Below, in pieces: positions 28,628-31,750 of a DNA stretch of 64,000 bases. The DNA comes from an uncultured Candidatus Saccharibacteria bacterium (GTDB taxonomy: Bacteria > Patescibacteriota > Doudnabacteria > UBA920). The notes under the pieces are model-generated. The model was not told the DNA's origin, did no database searches, and saw nothing but the letters and a program-made list of their open reading frames with translations. Position 1 is the stretch's first letter; each line of letters begins with the position of its first letter. The stretch covers positions 1,517 through 65,516 of the forward strand of contig CAZFTX010000003.1 in assembly GCA_964521955.1 (NCBI GenBank), given 5' to 3'. A program made the translations under genes and the position numbers.

Positions 28628-29560
28628 TTATTGTTTAATGGTACTTAAATAATAGTCATAGAGCTTTTTCAATCCGTCTTTAAAACTTGTTGTATACTGC
28701 CAACCCATTTCTTTCATTTTACTTACATCCAAAAGTTTTTTTGGCATCCCGTCCGGCTTAGTTGAGTCAAAAACCAAATTTCCTTCAAAACCTACAACTT
28801 CCTTAATTGCAAAAGCTAATTCCTTAATGGAAATATCTTCTCCCGTACCAACGTTAACAAACTGTTTTCCGTCGTAATTTTGCATTAAAAAATAAACCGC
28901 TTCCGCAAGATCGTCTACATACAAAAACTCCCTGCGACTCTCTCCGGTACCCCAAATTACCACTTCAGGTAAATTCTTCTGTTTTGCTTCCTGCATACGA
29001 AGCATAATCCCAGGGATCACATGCGAAGAATTCGGGTCAAAGTTGTCATTTTCTCCATAAATATTTGTTGGCATGCAAGAAATAAAATTCTTACCGTGTT
29101 GTTCTTTTAAATATTCCCCCAAACGAATTCCGGCAGTTTTAGCTACGGCATAACCTTCGTTAGTAGGTTCGAATCTTCCTGTTAAAAAATATTCTTCTTT
29201 CATTGGCTGAGGACACTCACGCGGGTAAATGCAGCTACTGCCTAAAAACAAAAACTTTTTTACTCCATTTAAGTGCGACTGCCACATTAAATTATTTTGC
29301 ATTTCTAGATTTTCATACAAAAAATCAGCTAAATTTTCCATATTTGCCTTAATTCCTCCCACCCTCGCGGCGGAATCTATAACATATTCAGGCTTCTCCT
29401 CTTCAAAAAACTTTTTTACCGCCTGCTGGTCCAACAAGTCCAATTCTTGTCTGGTTTTTAAAACCAAATTTTCAAACCCTTCTTTTAAAAGCTTTCTGAC
29501 TATAGCAGAACCTACCATGCCCTTATGCCCGGCTACAAAAATTTTTGATTTTTTTTCCAT
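28628..29560 (-). CDS. GDP-L-fucose synthase family (Fcl/WcaG; equally compatible with a ColC-type GDP-4-keto-3,6-dideoxymannose epimerase/reductase)
   Basis: 310 aa; 'IFVAGHKGMVGSAIVRKL...ELDLLDQQAVKKFF' is a classic Fcl N-terminus. Downstream of gmd and the ColD-like gene. Confidence 0.75.
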   Translation of the reverse strand: MEKKSKIFVAGHKGMVGSAIVRKLLKEGFENLVLKTRQELDLLDQQAVKKFFEEEKPEYVIDSAARVGGIKANMENLADFLYENLEMQNNLMWQSHLNGVKKFLFLGSSCIYPRECPQPMKEEYFLTGRFEPTNEGYAVAKTAGIRLGEYLKEQHGKNFISCMPTNIYGENDNFDPNSSHVIPGIMLRMQEAKQKNLPEVVIWGTGESRREFLYVDDLAEAVYFLMQNYDGKQFVNVGTGEDISIKELAFAIKEVVGFEGNLVFDSTKPDGMPKKLLDVSKMKEMGWQYTTSFKDGLKKLYDYYLSTIKQ

Positions 29561-29564
29561 AAAT

Positions 29565-30728
29565 TTATTTGGTTAATAGCTTTTTAAAAAGTTCTAAATC
29601 GTTTAAACAAAGCTCCGGATTATTTGGAAAGTAAAAACCCTGCTCATGAACTAAAGAGGTGTTAGTGCAACTTGCATGGCTGGAATCATACTTTTTAAAA
29701 AAAGGTTGCTTTGTCATATCACCGGCAATAATTGGTCGAATTTCTACCTGAGCTTCCTCAAATTTTTGTTTATACTTTTCCCACAATTCTTTTGTTTTTA
29801 AGACCACCGGAAATGCAAAATTGGAAACTTTGTCCATGTGCTTCAAGTTAAGCGAGTAAAAATCTTCGTTTTGCATAATTACCTCATTTATCTCAAAAAA
29901 GTTTTTTTGTCTTTTTTCCACCATTTCATCTAAAAACTCAATCTGATTATTGCCTAAAAATCCGGTTATTTCTGTCGGCCTCCCATTGTAAGCCAATTCA
30001 TAAAAAGTATATTTAGCATAAAAATCACTAATTCGGTTTTTGTCTCTGAGTTCTTTTTTAAATACTTCAGGCAGACTGCGGTCCCAACCGTGAGCTCTAA
30101 CCATTAAAAGCATGTGATAAAGTTCTTTGTTGCCAGTAACTACCATTCCACCCTCAATTGTTGAAAGGTGGTGACCTACAAAAAATGAAAAAGTTGAAGC
30201 TAAACCAAAATTACCCAAAAGCTTGCCCTGAACTTTTGAGCCCAAAGCTTCGCAGTTATCTTCAAAAAATAATACTTTGTGTTCTTCACACATTTTGGCG
30301 ATTGCTGAAATGTCGTCAGCAAAACCTAAAACATTGGTTAAAAACAACGCTTGTAAATTTTTAATTTGCGTTGCCAAAATTTCCGACGAAACATTTAATG
30401 TTTCCAAGTTTAAATCTAAGGGTACTGGTATTAACCCCAACTGAATTAAAGGCATAACATTGGTTGCCCAAGTCAGACTGGAAAAACCAACTCTATCCCC
30501 TTTTTTTAATAGACCTAAATTTAAAAGGGCTTGAATTAAAACCAAGTTAGCCATACTCCCGTTTGAAACTAAAACCGCATATTTATTTTCCTGTTTTTTC
30601 GCAAAAGCCGTTTCAAACCTACTACACTCCTCGTCCATACTTAAAGTTTTGGCTTTAATTACAAATTCAGCCAAAGCATTTTTGGTTTCTGTTTCTTTAT
30701 AAAATGTTGACTTCATTAACTTAATCAT
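29565..30728 (-). CDS. PLP/PMP-dependent 3-dehydrase-type enzyme (ColD-like GDP-4-keto-6-deoxymannose 3-dehydratase; DegT family)
   Basis: 387 aa; '[17 protein letters not shown]'; His-His at the position of the usual PLP lysine ('[14 protein letters not shown]'), as in ColD/E1 dehydrases. Lies between gmd and the fcl-like gene. Confidence 0.55.
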
Positions 30729-31750
30729 GCAGTTTTTAAATCATGCTCCATCATTATTGAAACCAACTCTTTAAACTTAACCTTAGGCTCCCAGCCCAAT
30801 TTTTCCTTTGCTTTACTAAAGTCTCCAACTAACAAGTCAACTTCAGCGGGTCTAAAATATCTAGGATCAACTTCTACAACAACTTTCCCAGTTTTTTTGT
30901 TTATACCTTTTTCTTCTAAGCCCGTCCCTTCCCACAAAAGCTCCATGCCAATATGTCTCGCAGCTTCTTCTACAAATTCCCTAACCGAATAAGTTTCCCC
31001 GGTAGCTAAAACAAAGTCTTCCGGTTCACTGTGTTGCAACATTCGCCACATGCCTTCCACATAGTCTTTAGCATAACCCCAGTCCCTACGAGCGTTTAAA
31101 TTCCCCAAATATAGTTTTTCTTCCTGACCTTTATAAATTTTTGAAAGCGCCCGGGTAATTTTCCTTGTTACAAAAGTTTCTCCTCGTCTTGGACTTTCAT
31201 GATTAAACAAAATTCCGTTACAAGCAAACATGTTGTAACTTTCCCGATAGTTTACTGTAATCCAATACCCAAACACTTTGGCCGCACCATAAGGTGAGCG
31301 TGGATAAAAAGGAGTAGTTTCTTTTTGAGGCACTTCCCTAACCTTCCCAAACATTTCCGAAGAAGAAGCCTGGTAAAATTTTGTTTTGATTCCACTGTCT
31401 TTAATTGCGTCTAAAAGTCTTAATGCACCAACCCCAGTAACGTCTGCGGTATATTCCGGAATGTCAAAACTTACACGTACATGGCTTTGGGCGCCTAAAT
31501 GATAAATCTCATCCGGCTTTACTTTTTCAAGTAACCTGGAAAGATTGCTCGAGTCAGACAAGTCGCCATAATGTAAAATCAACCTCTTGTTTTCTTTATG
31601 AGGATCTTCAAAAATATGGTTAACCCTATGAGTATTGAAAGTGGAAGCTCTGCGAATAATGCCGTGAACTTCATAGCCTTTTTCCAAAAGCAGTTCCGCT
31701 AAGTAACTCCCGTCTTGTCCGGTAATCCCGGTTATTAAAGCCTTCTTCAT
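30725..31750 (-). CDS. gmd: GDP-mannose 4,6-dehydratase
   Basis: '[40 protein letters not shown]' is a canonical Gmd N-terminus. Start moved to the ATG at 31750, 4 nt after the stop of the upstream HTH gene; the track's 31807 start would overlap that gene. Confidence 0.85.

What the first reader, a model, noticed from the sequence alone, without database searches (positions are those of the whole stretch)
28628..31750. gmd / ColD-like 3-dehydrase / Fcl(ColC)-like triad: candidate GDP-colitose (3,6-dideoxy-L-galactose) module next to a CDP-dideoxyhexose module
The gene order gmd, then a DegT-family enzyme with a His-His active site ('GHHLST'), then a GDP-fucose-synthase-family epimerase/reductase is the order of the colitose pathway (ColB-ColD-ColC). 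With the CDP module at 12.6-22.6 kb, the locus would encode two independent 3,6-dideoxyhexose routes. That is rare overall and unexpected in a small genome.
Basis: partly seen in the sequence, partly recalled or inferred. Interest (0 to 1): 0.55.

Follow-up and report, generated by a model that had tools for sequence, protein, structure and literature searches.

The report
Candidate GDP-colitose sugar operon
Three tightly packed genes in a candidate-phyla-radiation (Patescibacteria-like) cell-surface sugar locus most likely turn GDP-mannose into GDP-colitose, a 3,6-dideoxy sugar; the assignment holds up, but the module is common in these small-genome bacteria, not rare.

Summary
On the minus strand, 28628-31750 holds gmd (30725-31750), a 387-aa DegT-family gene (29565-30728) and an Fcl-family gene (28628-29560). 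They are packed with a 4-nt overlap and a 4-nt gap. The DegT protein has 'GHHLST' (30159-30176), and its first His aligns with the catalytic His188 of E. coli ColD. There is no Schiff-base Lys and no E1-type iron-sulfur cysteine motif. ColD is the best match by sequence (2e-58) and by fold (TM 0.88-0.90). The protein is only about 32% identical to ColD. It belongs to a large Patescibacteria family (52-66% identity) that groups with ColD against E1 in 100/100 NJ bootstraps. Of 80 related genomes, 21 keep gmd-X-fcl and 41 have gmd directly adjacent. Two species fuse the ColD-like and Fcl-like genes into one 698-aa protein. GDP-L-colitose is the best-supported product, but this is inferred: the third enzyme is closer to Fcl (49%) than to E. 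coli ColC (42%), and no manC/manB lies in the window. The 'rare/unexpected' claim fails. Yersinia pseudotuberculosis O:6 also combines colitose with a CDP-derived dideoxy sugar. Verdict: a divergent new member of a known pathway, of moderate-low interest. The neighbouring iron-sulfur-free E1-like enzyme is the more unusual item.

The parts
30725..31750 (-). gmd, GDP-mannose 4,6-dehydratase (341 aa)
   Evidence: TIGR01472 equivalog 594.7 bits, cutoff 415. PF16363 4.4e-157. 65% identical to both E. coli Gmd copies. Overlaps the next gene by 4 nt.
29565..30728 (-). ColD-type PMP-dependent sugar 3-dehydratase (387 aa); candidate GDP-4-keto-6-deoxy-D-mannose 3-dehydratase
   Evidence: Best PDB sequence hit is E. 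coli O55 ColD, 2gms, 2.3e-58; E1 gives 1.9e-42. 32% identical to ColD. AF2 model has pLDDT 92; the best fold hits are ColD with TM 0.88-0.90. ColD residues W88, D159, E162, S183, H188, H189, R219, N248, R250 and R331 are kept in the window protein, and all but H189 (Q in one member) are invariant in 79 family members. Groups with ColD against E1 in 100/100 NJ bootstraps.
30159..30176 (-). GHHLST motif. The first His (H186, codon 30171-30173) occupies the position of catalytic His188 of ColD, where aminotransferases have the Schiff-base Lys.
   Evidence: ColD S187 is replaced by Gly in 78 of 79 family members.
28628..29560 (-). Fcl-family epimerase/reductase (310 aa); candidate GDP-L-colitose synthase (ColC function), possibly also a GDP-fucose synthase
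   Evidence: NF047922 441.6 bits, below the 500 cutoff. On the same model E. coli Fcl scores 551 and E. coli ColC 304. 49% identical to Fcl and 42% to ColC. S107, C109, Y136, K140 and H179 are conserved. Fused to the ColD-like gene in L002 and L004.
31755..32000 (-). 81-aa HTH_17 protein directly upstream of gmd; possible first gene or regulator of the operon
   Evidence: PF12728 8.9e-11. 75-78% identical copies lie upstream of gmd in L002 and L004, and a copy is also upstream in L077. A promoter-like site lies at 32061-32034 on the minus strand; this is weak evidence.
27640..28626 (-). GT2-family glycosyltransferase 1 nt downstream of the fcl-like gene; candidate transferase for the product
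   Evidence: PF00535 1.4e-6. 61-62% identical copies follow the triad in L002 and L004, where the gene is fused to the methyltransferase. The acceptor and donor sugars are untested.
26994..27635 (-). Methyltransf_24 SAM-dependent methyltransferase
   Evidence: PF13578 4.2e-14. Co-conserved with, and fused to, the GT2 gene in L002 and L004.
25665..26993 (-). Wzx-type polysaccharide flippase
   Evidence: PF01943 4.9e-26. 52-53% identical copies occupy the same position in L002 and L004.
12621..13844 (-). Neighbouring module: E1 (RfbH/DdhC)-like His-dehydratase without the [2Fe-2S] cysteines
   Evidence: Best PDB hit is E1, 3bcx, 9.5e-75. RfbH model 355.9 bits, below the 423 cutoff. The His220 equivalent is conserved. 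Cys251, Cys253 and Cys261 are absent from it and from all 120 closest homologues.
20745..22592 (-). Neighbouring module: fused glucose-1-phosphate cytidylyltransferase / CDP-glucose 4,6-dehydratase (615 aa)
   Evidence: TIGR02623 275.7 bits on residues 3-264 and TIGR02622 198.5 bits on residues 300-612, both below their cutoffs. 62-64% identical copies lie near the triad in L002, L004 and L011.

Best explanation
The three genes form a GDP-L-colitose (3,6-dideoxy-L-xylo-hexose) branch inside a long minus-strand surface-glycan operon of a Patescibacteria-type bacterium.

Step 1 is shown by strong homology: Gmd converts GDP-D-mannose to GDP-4-keto-6-deoxy-D-mannose.

Step 2 is inferred from active-site signatures, fold and context. 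The DegT-family protein is a ColD-type enzyme. It uses PMP rather than Lys-bound PLP, and His186 acts as the acid/base that expels the C3 hydroxyl. It has no iron-sulfur cluster and no reductase partner. PMP would therefore be regenerated by transamination from L-glutamate, as in ColD. The product is GDP-4-keto-3,6-dideoxy-D-mannose.

Step 3 is inferred. The Fcl-family enzyme keeps the Ser/Tyr/Lys triad and the Cys/His epimerisation pair. It would epimerise C5 and reduce C4 with NADPH to give GDP-L-colitose. The same enzyme may also make GDP-L-fucose from the Gmd product.

The adjacent GT2, methyltransferase and Wzx flippase then place the sugar in a surface polymer. GDP-mannose must come from genes outside the window.
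For: - Active site: His replaces Lys at the ColD His188 position, and the E1 cysteine motif is absent.
- Closest solved protein: ColD is the best solved match by sequence (201 bits, against 149 for E1) and by fold (TM 0.88-0.90, against 0.83/0.77 for E1).
- ColD-versus-E1 residues: W88, E162, H189, the R219 'RAHGW.R' motif and R250 are invariant or nearly so in 79 family members. They differ in E1 and in the window's E1-like protein.
- Phylogeny: the split (ColD + this family | E1 + E1-like family) is recovered in 100/100 NJ bootstraps.
- Translational coupling: a 4-nt overlap and a 4-nt gap separate the genes.
- Synteny: gmd-X-fcl is kept in 21 of 80 species-level loci spanning many Patescibacteria lineages and a DPANN bin, and gmd is directly adjacent in 41 of 80.
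- Fusions in close relatives: ColD-like::Fcl-like forms one 698-aa ORF in two species that are 81% identical to each other.
- Fusions in the wider superfamily: Gmd::ColD-type (P0320) and Fcl::ColD-type (P0333, P0327) fusions exist.
- Mechanism: the ColD mechanism is taken from the review PMC8987622.
Against: - Identity to characterised ColD is only about 32%. E. coli ColD is in fact slightly more similar by BLAST to the window's other, E1-like protein (219 against 195 bits).
- ColD Ser187 is Gly here.
- Enzymes 62-67% identical to ColD act on GDP-heptose, so substrate can shift within the family (PMC10440746).
- The third enzyme is nearer to Fcl than to ColC. Sequence cannot show that it accepts the 3-deoxy intermediate.
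- No manC or manB lies in the 64-kb window.
- No GT11-type colitosyl/fucosyltransferase is present.
- Nucleotide specificity was not tested at residue level.
- A sub-clade of the family sits in loci without gmd.
Confidence: 0.72

Rival explanations
1. gmd and the fcl-like gene are an ordinary GDP-L-fucose pair. The DegT-family enzyme between them diverts part of the GDP-4-keto-6-deoxymannose pool to a different product. A reductase encoded elsewhere would finish that product, giving a 3,6-dideoxy sugar of other stereochemistry or a 4-amino sugar made by slow transamination. On this reading fucose, not colitose, is the main sugar delivered.
For: The third enzyme is closer to E. coli Fcl (49%; 441.6 bits on the Fcl model) than to the true ColC (42%; ColC itself scores only 304 bits). 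All Fcl catalytic residues are intact. In 16 related loci, mostly labelled Peribacteria or Peregrinibacteria, the order is colD-gmd. Where tblastn found any Fcl-like sequence in those loci (about half of them), it was only 23-27% identical to Fcl. The dehydratase can therefore pair with other reductases.
Against: The ColD-like and Fcl-like genes are fused into one polypeptide in two close relatives. This argues that the Fcl-like enzyme acts on the dehydratase's product. The dehydratase sits between the two genes with coupled start and stop codons in 21 loci. ColC itself is an Fcl homologue with the same catalytic residues, so similarity to Fcl does not exclude ColC activity.
Confidence: 0.18
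2. The DegT-family protein acts on a sugar nucleotide other than a GDP-hexose. Candidates are GDP-6-deoxy-4-keto-heptose, as for the Campylobacter jejuni C3-dehydratases, or a CDP/dTDP-4-keto-6-deoxyhexose. The adjacency to gmd would then be incidental to a mixed glycan operon.
For: C. jejuni enzymes 62-67% identical to ColD use GDP-heptose (PMC10440746). The family is only about 32% identical to ColD. A sub-clade lacks adjacent gmd, and some of its members sit next to other SDRs. JGI labels many members as the CDP-sugar 3-dehydrase.
Against: The adjacent dehydratase passes the Gmd equivalog model well above its cutoff and is 65% identical to E. coli Gmd. No heptose-pathway genes (GmhA, HddA or HddC above cutoff) were found in the window. 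The window has a separate E1-like enzyme next to its CDP-glucose genes. gmd adjacency holds in 41 of 80 loci, and Gmd::ColD-type fusions exist.
Confidence: 0.07
3. The DegT-family protein is a Per-like aminotransferase, which would give GDP-perosamine. This is the refutation case named by the first reader.
For: It belongs to Pfam DegT/DnrJ/EryC1, and NCBI names its homologues 'aminotransferase'.
Against: The Schiff-base Lys position is His in the window protein and in all 79 aligned family members. Perosamine synthases score far lower (72 bits against 201 for ColD; TM 0.80-0.82 against 0.88-0.90).
Confidence: 0.02

Closest known systems
GDP-L-colitose pathway of E. coli O55/O111 and Yersinia pseudotuberculosis O:6: Gmd, ColD (WbdK; PDB 2GMS/3B8X), ColC (WbdJ)
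   Same: It has the same three enzyme families in pathway order. His replaces the PLP lysine. There is no iron-sulfur cluster. The residues around the cofactor and the pyrophosphate-binding arginines are conserved (as I recall them from the ColD structural papers, and consistent with the alignment). ColD is the best match by both sequence and fold. The genes sit inside a surface-polysaccharide gene cluster.
   Different: Identity to ColD is only about 32%, and ColD Ser187 is Gly. The Fcl-like partner is nearer to Fcl than to enterobacterial ColC. The gene order gmd-colD-colC is contiguous and translationally coupled here, whereas in E. coli O55:H7 colC-colD lie beyond gnd, apart from gmd. No manC/manB or GT11 transferase lies nearby. 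The host is a Patescibacteria-type organism, which is presumed to have no LPS O-antigen.
E1 (RfbH/DdhC/AscC), the CDP-6-deoxy-L-threo-D-glycero-4-hexulose 3-dehydrase that works with the E3 reductase
   Same: It has the same fold and the same catalytic His in place of Lys, and it carries out C3 deoxygenation of an NDP-4-keto-6-deoxyhexose.
   Different: E1 carries a [2Fe-2S] cluster on Cys251/253/261 and needs the E3 reductase. The window's gmd-linked protein has no such cysteines. It falls on the ColD side of the ColD/E1 split.
Campylobacter jejuni HS:5/HS:11 GDP-heptose C3-dehydratases (PMC10440746)
   Same: They are ColD-type, glutamate-recycled, PLP/PMP-dependent C3-dehydratases that act on a GDP-4-keto-6-deoxy sugar in a capsule locus.
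   Different: Those enzymes are 62-67% identical to ColD and follow a GDP-heptose 4,6-dehydratase, with a separate epimerase and reductase. Here the partner is a bona fide Gmd and a bifunctional Fcl-type enzyme.
Yersinia pseudotuberculosis O:6 O-antigen cluster (colitose plus yersiniose A)
   Same: One locus encodes a GDP-colitose branch and a CDP-glucose-derived 3,6-dideoxy (branched) sugar branch (PMC5399914). The window's CDP module also has a ThDP enzyme, as the yersiniose route does with YerE (PMC9306805).
   Different: Yersinia uses canonical DdhC (E1) with DdhD (E3). The window's E1-like protein lacks the cluster cysteines, and no E3 is present. Whether the window's ThDP enzyme is a YerE equivalent was not tested.

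Membership tests
[quoted passage not shown] | Fold-type I DegT/aspartate-aminotransferase-like fold | tested here: met
   PF01041 1.9e-57. AF2 model has pLDDT 92 and TM 0.88-0.90 to ColD structures.
[quoted passage not shown] | Catalytic His (His188) in place of the Schiff-base Lys | tested here: met
   H186 of GHHLST aligns with His188. It is invariant in 79 family members.
[quoted passage not shown] | No [2Fe-2S] cysteine motif and no reductase partner (PMP regenerated from glutamate) | tested here: met
   There are no cysteines in the region aligned to E1 Cys251-261. No Fer2/FNR-type ORF was found in the window. Use of glutamate itself is inferred.
[quoted passage not shown] | Closer to characterised ColD than to E1 or aminotransferases (orthology) | tested here: inconclusive
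   Seen from the window protein, ColD is best: 201 bits, against 149 for E1. NJ supports the split (ColD + family | E1 + E1-like) in 100/100 bootstraps. However, identity is only 32%, and E. coli ColD scores higher on the window's E1-like protein (219 against 195 bits). No ML tree or broad sampling of ColD, SpnQ and an outgroup was done.
[quoted passage not shown] | Ser187 next to the catalytic His | tested here: not met
   This position is Gly in the window protein and in 78 of 79 family members. That Ser187 matters for the dehydratase/aminotransferase switch is my recollection from the S187N/H188K work (PDB 3GR9). It is not known to be essential for dehydration.
[quoted passage not shown] | Substrate is the GDP-linked product of Gmd | not testable with these tools
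   Supported only by context: the 4-nt overlap with gmd, gmd adjacency in 41 of 80 loci, and Gmd::ColD-type fusions. The Arg219 and Arg331 equivalents are conserved, but they are shared with E1.
ColC (GDP-L-colitose synthase) / Fcl family | Extended SDR with a Ser-Tyr-Lys triad plus a Cys/His epimerisation pair | tested here: met
   S107, C109, Y136, K140 and H179 (E. coli Fcl numbering) are all present.
ColC (GDP-L-colitose synthase) / Fcl family | Specific relationship to characterised ColC rather than to Fcl | tested here: not met
   It is 42% identical to E. coli ColC and 49% to E. coli Fcl. On the Fcl equivalog model it scores 441.6 bits, between ColC (304) and Fcl (551).
ColC (GDP-L-colitose synthase) / Fcl family | Acts on the ColD product (functional coupling) | tested here: met
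   Genetic evidence only. The gene lies immediately downstream in 21 loci. It is fused to the ColD-like gene in L002 and L004.
Gmd (GDP-mannose 4,6-dehydratase) | Passes the curated equivalog model | tested here: met
   TIGR01472 594.7 bits, cutoff 415.
E1 (RfbH/DdhC), for the second DegT protein at 12621-13844 | [2Fe-2S] ligands Cys251, Cys253 and Cys261 | tested here: not met
   These positions are Leu, Gly and Leu in the window protein. The cysteines are absent from all 120 closest homologues. The RfbH model gives 355.9 bits, below the 423 cutoff.

The most novel reading that the evidence does not exclude
The locus encodes two cluster-free, reductase-independent (ColD-style) 3-dehydratases. 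One is GDP-linked and makes colitose. The other belongs to an E1-like clade that has lost the [2Fe-2S] cysteines and would deoxygenate a CDP-4-keto-6-deoxyhexose without an E3 partner. Its product would feed a ThDP-enzyme/C-methyltransferase route to a yersiniose-like branched dideoxy sugar. If so, many ultra-small Patescibacteria would coat themselves with the same rare 3,6-dideoxy sugars that serve as serotype determinants in Yersinia and Salmonella. They would make them by a simplified chemistry that has not been characterised for CDP sugars.
Probability: 0.3. Interest if true: 0.55.

Novelty: new member of a known kind. Interest (0 to 1): 0.3.

Why it matters
The result gives a specific, testable function to a very large protein family that is currently named 'DegT aminotransferase' or, wrongly, 'CDP-...-3-dehydrase'. 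A search of clusters at 50% identity found 568 representatives at E<=1e-30, a count that also includes relatives such as ColD and E1; the 120 best hits in the first protein search are 58-66% identical apart from one identical sequence. It predicts that 3,6-dideoxyhexoses are common in the surface glycans of Patescibacteria. These sugars are classically regarded as rare markers of enterobacterial O-antigens. Surface glycans are likely to matter for attachment to hosts and for evasion of phages. A cultured carrier of the triad exists (Minisyncoccus archaeiphilus, L013), so the prediction can be tested by sugar analysis. None of this overturns known biochemistry.

Tried and rejected
- I tried to read the primary ColD and E1 structure papers (PMC2533848, PMC2782820, PMC2242600). 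They are not held. The roles of individual residues therefore rest on the review PMC8987622 and on my recollection.
- I looked for a GT11 (WbgN-type) colitosyltransferase and for manC/manB. No ORF of 150 aa or more in the window matches.
- I looked for a glycosyltransferase family that recurs next to the triad across lineages. Only lineage-specific GT2/GT4 genes and a ~280-aa family with no Pfam match recur.
- I tested whether the Fcl-like protein is specifically ColC-like. It is not.
- I considered the Per-type aminotransferase reading and rejected it on the His/Lys position.
- I considered horizontal import. The G+C content of the triad (0.36-0.37) matches that of its neighbours, so there is no sign of import.
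- Counts of promoter-like and terminator-like sites do not exceed the shuffled expectation, so operon boundaries are not established.
- A literature search for colitose together with Patescibacteria found only one unrelated paper.
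Full report
OBSERVATION

The interval 28628-31750 holds exactly three minus-strand ORFs. The first is gmd (30725-31750, 341 aa). It scores 594.7 bits on the TIGR01472 equivalog, cutoff 415, and is 65% identical to both E. coli Gmd copies. The second is a DegT/DnrJ/EryC1-family protein (29565-30728, 387 aa; PF01041, 1.9e-57). The third is an Fcl-family extended SDR (28628-29560, 310 aa). It scores 441.6 bits on NF047922 GDPFucSynFcl, below the 500 cutoff.

gmd and the DegT gene overlap by 4 nt. The DegT stop and the fcl-like ATG are 4 nt apart. 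The quoted motif GHHLST is encoded at 30159-30176.

WHAT THE MIDDLE GENE IS

Against all PDB sequences the best matches are the four E. coli O55 ColD entries (2.3e-58, 201 bits). Next comes the CDP-sugar dehydrase E1 (149 bits). Aminotransferases, including perosamine synthase, score about 72 bits.

The ColD entries for the H188N and H188K mutants differ from wild type at exactly the residue that aligns with the first His of GHHLST. That His therefore occupies the catalytic His188 position, where aminotransferases carry the Schiff-base lysine.

An AlphaFold2 model built on 38 homologues has mean pLDDT 92.1. Only the loop that bears the His is of low confidence. The model superposes best on ColD (TM 0.88-0.90), then on E1 (0.83/0.77), then on aminotransferases.

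In an alignment of 79 family members with E. coli ColD and Yersinia E1, the ColD residues W88, D159, E162, S183, H188, R219, N248, R250 and R331 are invariant, and H189 is nearly so (Q in one member). Of these, W88, E162, H189, the 'RAHGW.R' segment around R219, and R250 differ in E1 and in the window's second, E1-like protein. ColD Ser187 is Gly in 78 of 79 members. The region that carries the E1 [2Fe-2S] cysteines contains no cysteine. According to the review PMC8987622, His-for-Lys defines the sugar 3-dehydratases, and absence of the cluster separates the ColD mechanism from the E1/SpnQ mechanism. In the ColD mechanism the enamine is hydrolysed and PMP is regenerated from glutamate. The E1/SpnQ mechanism depends on a reductase.

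HOW CLOSE IT IS TO ColD

It is not very close. I retrieved the genuine E. coli O55:H7 genes: ColD and ColC from L082, and Fcl from L083. The window protein is 31.8% identical to ColD. By BLAST, E. coli ColD is slightly more similar to the window's other DegT protein at 12621-13844 (219 against 195 bits).

A neighbour-joining analysis used 17 members of this family, 11 members of the E1-like family, E. coli ColD and Yersinia E1. It recovers the split (ColD + this family | E1 + E1-like family) in 100 of 100 bootstraps. I therefore place the protein on the ColD side of the superfamily, as a deep and distinct clade. Strict orthology remains inconclusive.

The Raushel-lab paper shows that enzymes 62-67% identical to ColD use GDP-heptose (PMC10440746). 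Substrate assignment at 32% identity therefore has to come from context.

CONTEXT

The family is large. A protein search returned one identical sequence and 119 hits of 58-66% identity. Where a source names them, most are Patescibacteria (Doudnabacteria, Microgenomates, Peregrinibacteria, Saccharimonadales, Minisyncoccus). A scan of species-representative genomes confirmed 151 relatives, of which the best 80 loci were kept. The exhaustive search of clusters at 50% identity found 568 representatives at E<=1e-30.

Of the 80 loci, 21 keep gmd, the ColD-like gene and an Fcl homologue (at least 40% identical) contiguous on one strand. A further 4 have gmd-X without a close Fcl. In 16 the order is X-gmd. 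In total, 41 of 80 have a Gmd that is at least 55% identical and directly adjacent. The 21 loci with the triad come from bins labelled Kaiserbacteria, Parcubacteria, Peregrinibacteria, Falkowbacteria, WWE3, Saccharibacteria and a Woesearchaeota bin. They also include the cultured Minisyncoccus archaeiphilus (L013).

A sub-clade without adjacent gmd sits among glycosyltransferases and a flippase, or next to other SDRs. The wider family may therefore not be uniform in substrate. The window protein lies in the part of the tree that is linked to gmd.

The strongest single item is a natural fusion. In L002 and L004 the ColD-like and Fcl-like genes are one 698-aa ORF with no stop codon between them. 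These two species are the window's closest relatives in the tree and are 81% identical to each other. Pfam confirms DegT at residues 13-382 and Epimerase at 395-626. The wider superfamily also contains Gmd::ColD-type (P0320) and Fcl::ColD-type (P0333, P0327) fusions. L002 and L004 further share the window's neighbours: GT2 (32074), HTH, GT2 (27640) fused to the methyltransferase, Wzx and the CDP fusion gene.

THE THIRD GENE

It keeps every catalytic residue of GDP-fucose synthase: S107, C109, Y136, K140 and H179. E. coli ColC keeps them too. It is 49% identical to E. coli Fcl and 42% to E. coli ColC. On NCBI's Fcl equivalog model, Fcl scores 551 bits, the window protein 441.6 and genuine ColC 304.

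Sequence therefore cannot distinguish ColC from Fcl function here. The fusion and the synteny indicate that the enzyme acts after the dehydratase. It may also serve as a fucose synthase.

MOST LIKELY MECHANISM

GDP-mannose is converted by Gmd to GDP-4-keto-6-deoxymannose. The ColD-type enzyme, using PMP with His186 as acid/base and glutamate to recycle the cofactor, converts this to GDP-4-keto-3,6-dideoxymannose. The Fcl-type enzyme then carries out C5 epimerisation and NADPH-dependent C4 reduction to give GDP-L-colitose.

The first step is shown by strong homology. The second rests on active-site signatures, fold and context. The third rests on context alone. The source of GDP-mannose is not in the window: no ORF of 150 aa or more matches ManC or ManB. 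My confidence in the pathway as a whole is about 0.7.

SURROUNDINGS

The triad lies in a glycan locus of about 40 kb in which almost every gene is on the minus strand. The locus includes the following:
- an initiating sugar transferase (4370-5671);
- GT2 and GT4 glycosyltransferases;
- a carbamoyltransferase;
- several SDRs;
- a Wzx flippase (25665-26993);
- two Wzy_C-TPR proteins.

Type IV pilus genes lie at 51-4306. The taxonomy of the homologues fits a Patescibacteria-type genome. A metagenomic contig (L084) is collinear with the window at about 92% nucleotide identity.

THE 'SECOND ROUTE'

The CDP module is real in outline. It contains the following:
- a fused glucose-1-phosphate cytidylyltransferase / CDP-glucose 4,6-dehydratase (20745-22592);
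- a second cytidylyltransferase-like gene;
- a ThDP enzyme related to the acetolactate synthase large subunit (17366-19177);
- an SDR (15287-16180);
- a C-methyltransferase (22659-23774);
- an E1-like protein (12621-13844).

The E1-like protein matches E1 best (255 bits) and keeps the catalytic His. It lacks Cys251, Cys253 and Cys261, as do all 120 of its closest homologues. No E3-type reductase is encoded in the window. It may therefore also work in the ColD manner, which would be new for a CDP-sugar enzyme. This is the more unusual item in the locus, and I did not test it further.

Two dideoxy-sugar branches in one locus are not unprecedented. The Yersinia pseudotuberculosis O:6 O-unit contains both colitose and yersiniose A. 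Its cluster carries gmd/col genes, and the ddh genes make the common CDP precursor of yersiniose A (PMC5399914). Yersiniose needs the ThDP enzyme YerE (PMC9306805). The two modules also lie near each other in L002, L004 and L011.

COMPARISON AND NOVELTY

This is a divergent member of the known ColD/colitose kind. It is not a new kind of system. I found no paper that links colitose to Patescibacteria. The assignment is therefore a useful correction of annotation with a testable prediction, but of moderate-low interest (0.3).

LIMITS

- No biochemical data exist for any member of this clade.
- Nucleotide specificity was not examined at residue level.
- The trees are neighbour-joining with few reference sequences.
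- The roles given for ColD Arg219, Arg331, Asn248 and Ser187 are from my memory of papers I could not open.

Noticed in passing
window 12621-13844 (-): This E1 (RfbH)-like DegT protein keeps the catalytic His but lacks the three E1 [2Fe-2S] cysteines (Cys251/253/261). So do all 120 of its closest homologues (69-97% identical; where a source names them, most are Patescibacteria). No E3-type reductase is encoded in the window. It may be a cluster-free, ColD-style CDP-sugar 3-dehydratase.
   Followed up: partly
window 15287-23774 (-): The CDP module contains a fused G1P-cytidylyltransferase/4,6-dehydratase and a second cytidylyltransferase-like gene. It also holds a weak cupin-like ORF, a ThDP (acetolactate-synthase-like) enzyme, DJ-1/PfpI, HAD, an SDR and a C-methyltransferase. 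This resembles a route to a yersiniose-like branched-chain dideoxy sugar.
   Followed up: partly
L002 6001-8097 and L004 5125-7221; L002 8106-9755 and L004 7353-8813: Two related species carry natural gene fusions. The ColD-like and Fcl-like genes form one 698-aa protein. The GT2 gene that follows the triad is fused to the Methyltransf_24 methyltransferase (549 and 486 aa).
   Followed up: yes
window 13845-15286, junction near 14657/14671: The collinear contig L084 (about 92% nucleotide identity) has a weak-NUDIX gene and a 409-aa gene of unknown family between the SDR and the E1-like gene. The window lacks about 610 nt of that 409-aa gene, which leaves a 226-aa ORF (14088-14768) with no Pfam match.
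   Followed up: partly
window 31755-32000 (-): An 81-aa HTH_17 (excisionase/MerR-like) protein ends 4 nt before gmd. Copies 75-78% identical sit upstream of gmd in L002 and L004, and a copy is also upstream in L077. A promoter-like TTGACA-16-(TG)GATACT site lies at 32061-32034. It may be a regulator of the operon.
   Followed up: partly
window 32948-33790 (+): This is the only sizeable plus-strand gene near the triad. It is 280 aa with no Pfam match and is 45% identical to L002:827-1690. The same family lies near the triad in 8 of 21 triad loci. It has a GT-A-like 'DADIVIP' segment. A perfect TTGACA-17-TATAAT site lies just upstream at 32917-32945. It may be an unclassified glycosyltransferase.
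   Followed up: partly
L021, L024, L027, L036, L038, L041, L043, L044, L046, L047, L054, L055, L061, L072, L078: In these loci, mostly labelled Peribacteria or Peregrinibacteria, the order is ColD-like then gmd. Where tblastn found any Fcl-like sequence in them (about half of the loci), it was only 23-27% identical to Fcl and not always downstream. These loci may make a different GDP-3,6-dideoxyhexose.
   Followed up: no
window 8252-9082 (-): This UDP-glucose/GDP-mannose dehydrogenase-family ORF is only 276 aa. It lacks the start of the N-terminal domain and all of the C-terminal domain. The same short form occurs in L084.
   Followed up: no
window 38166-40382 and 42094-44304 (-); 45295-48768 (-): Two paralogous proteins of about 737 aa combine a Wzy_C (O-antigen ligase/polymerase) domain with TPR repeats. 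A 1157-aa ORF nearby has no Pfam match.
   Followed up: no
L081-L082 (E. coli O55:H7 CB9615): In this reference colitose producer, colC and colD lie downstream of gnd, next to an ISAs1 pseudogene. They are separated from gmd-gmm-manC-manB in the main O-antigen cluster. PGAP names them only 'GDP-L-fucose synthase family protein' and 'DegT... aminotransferase'.
   Followed up: yes
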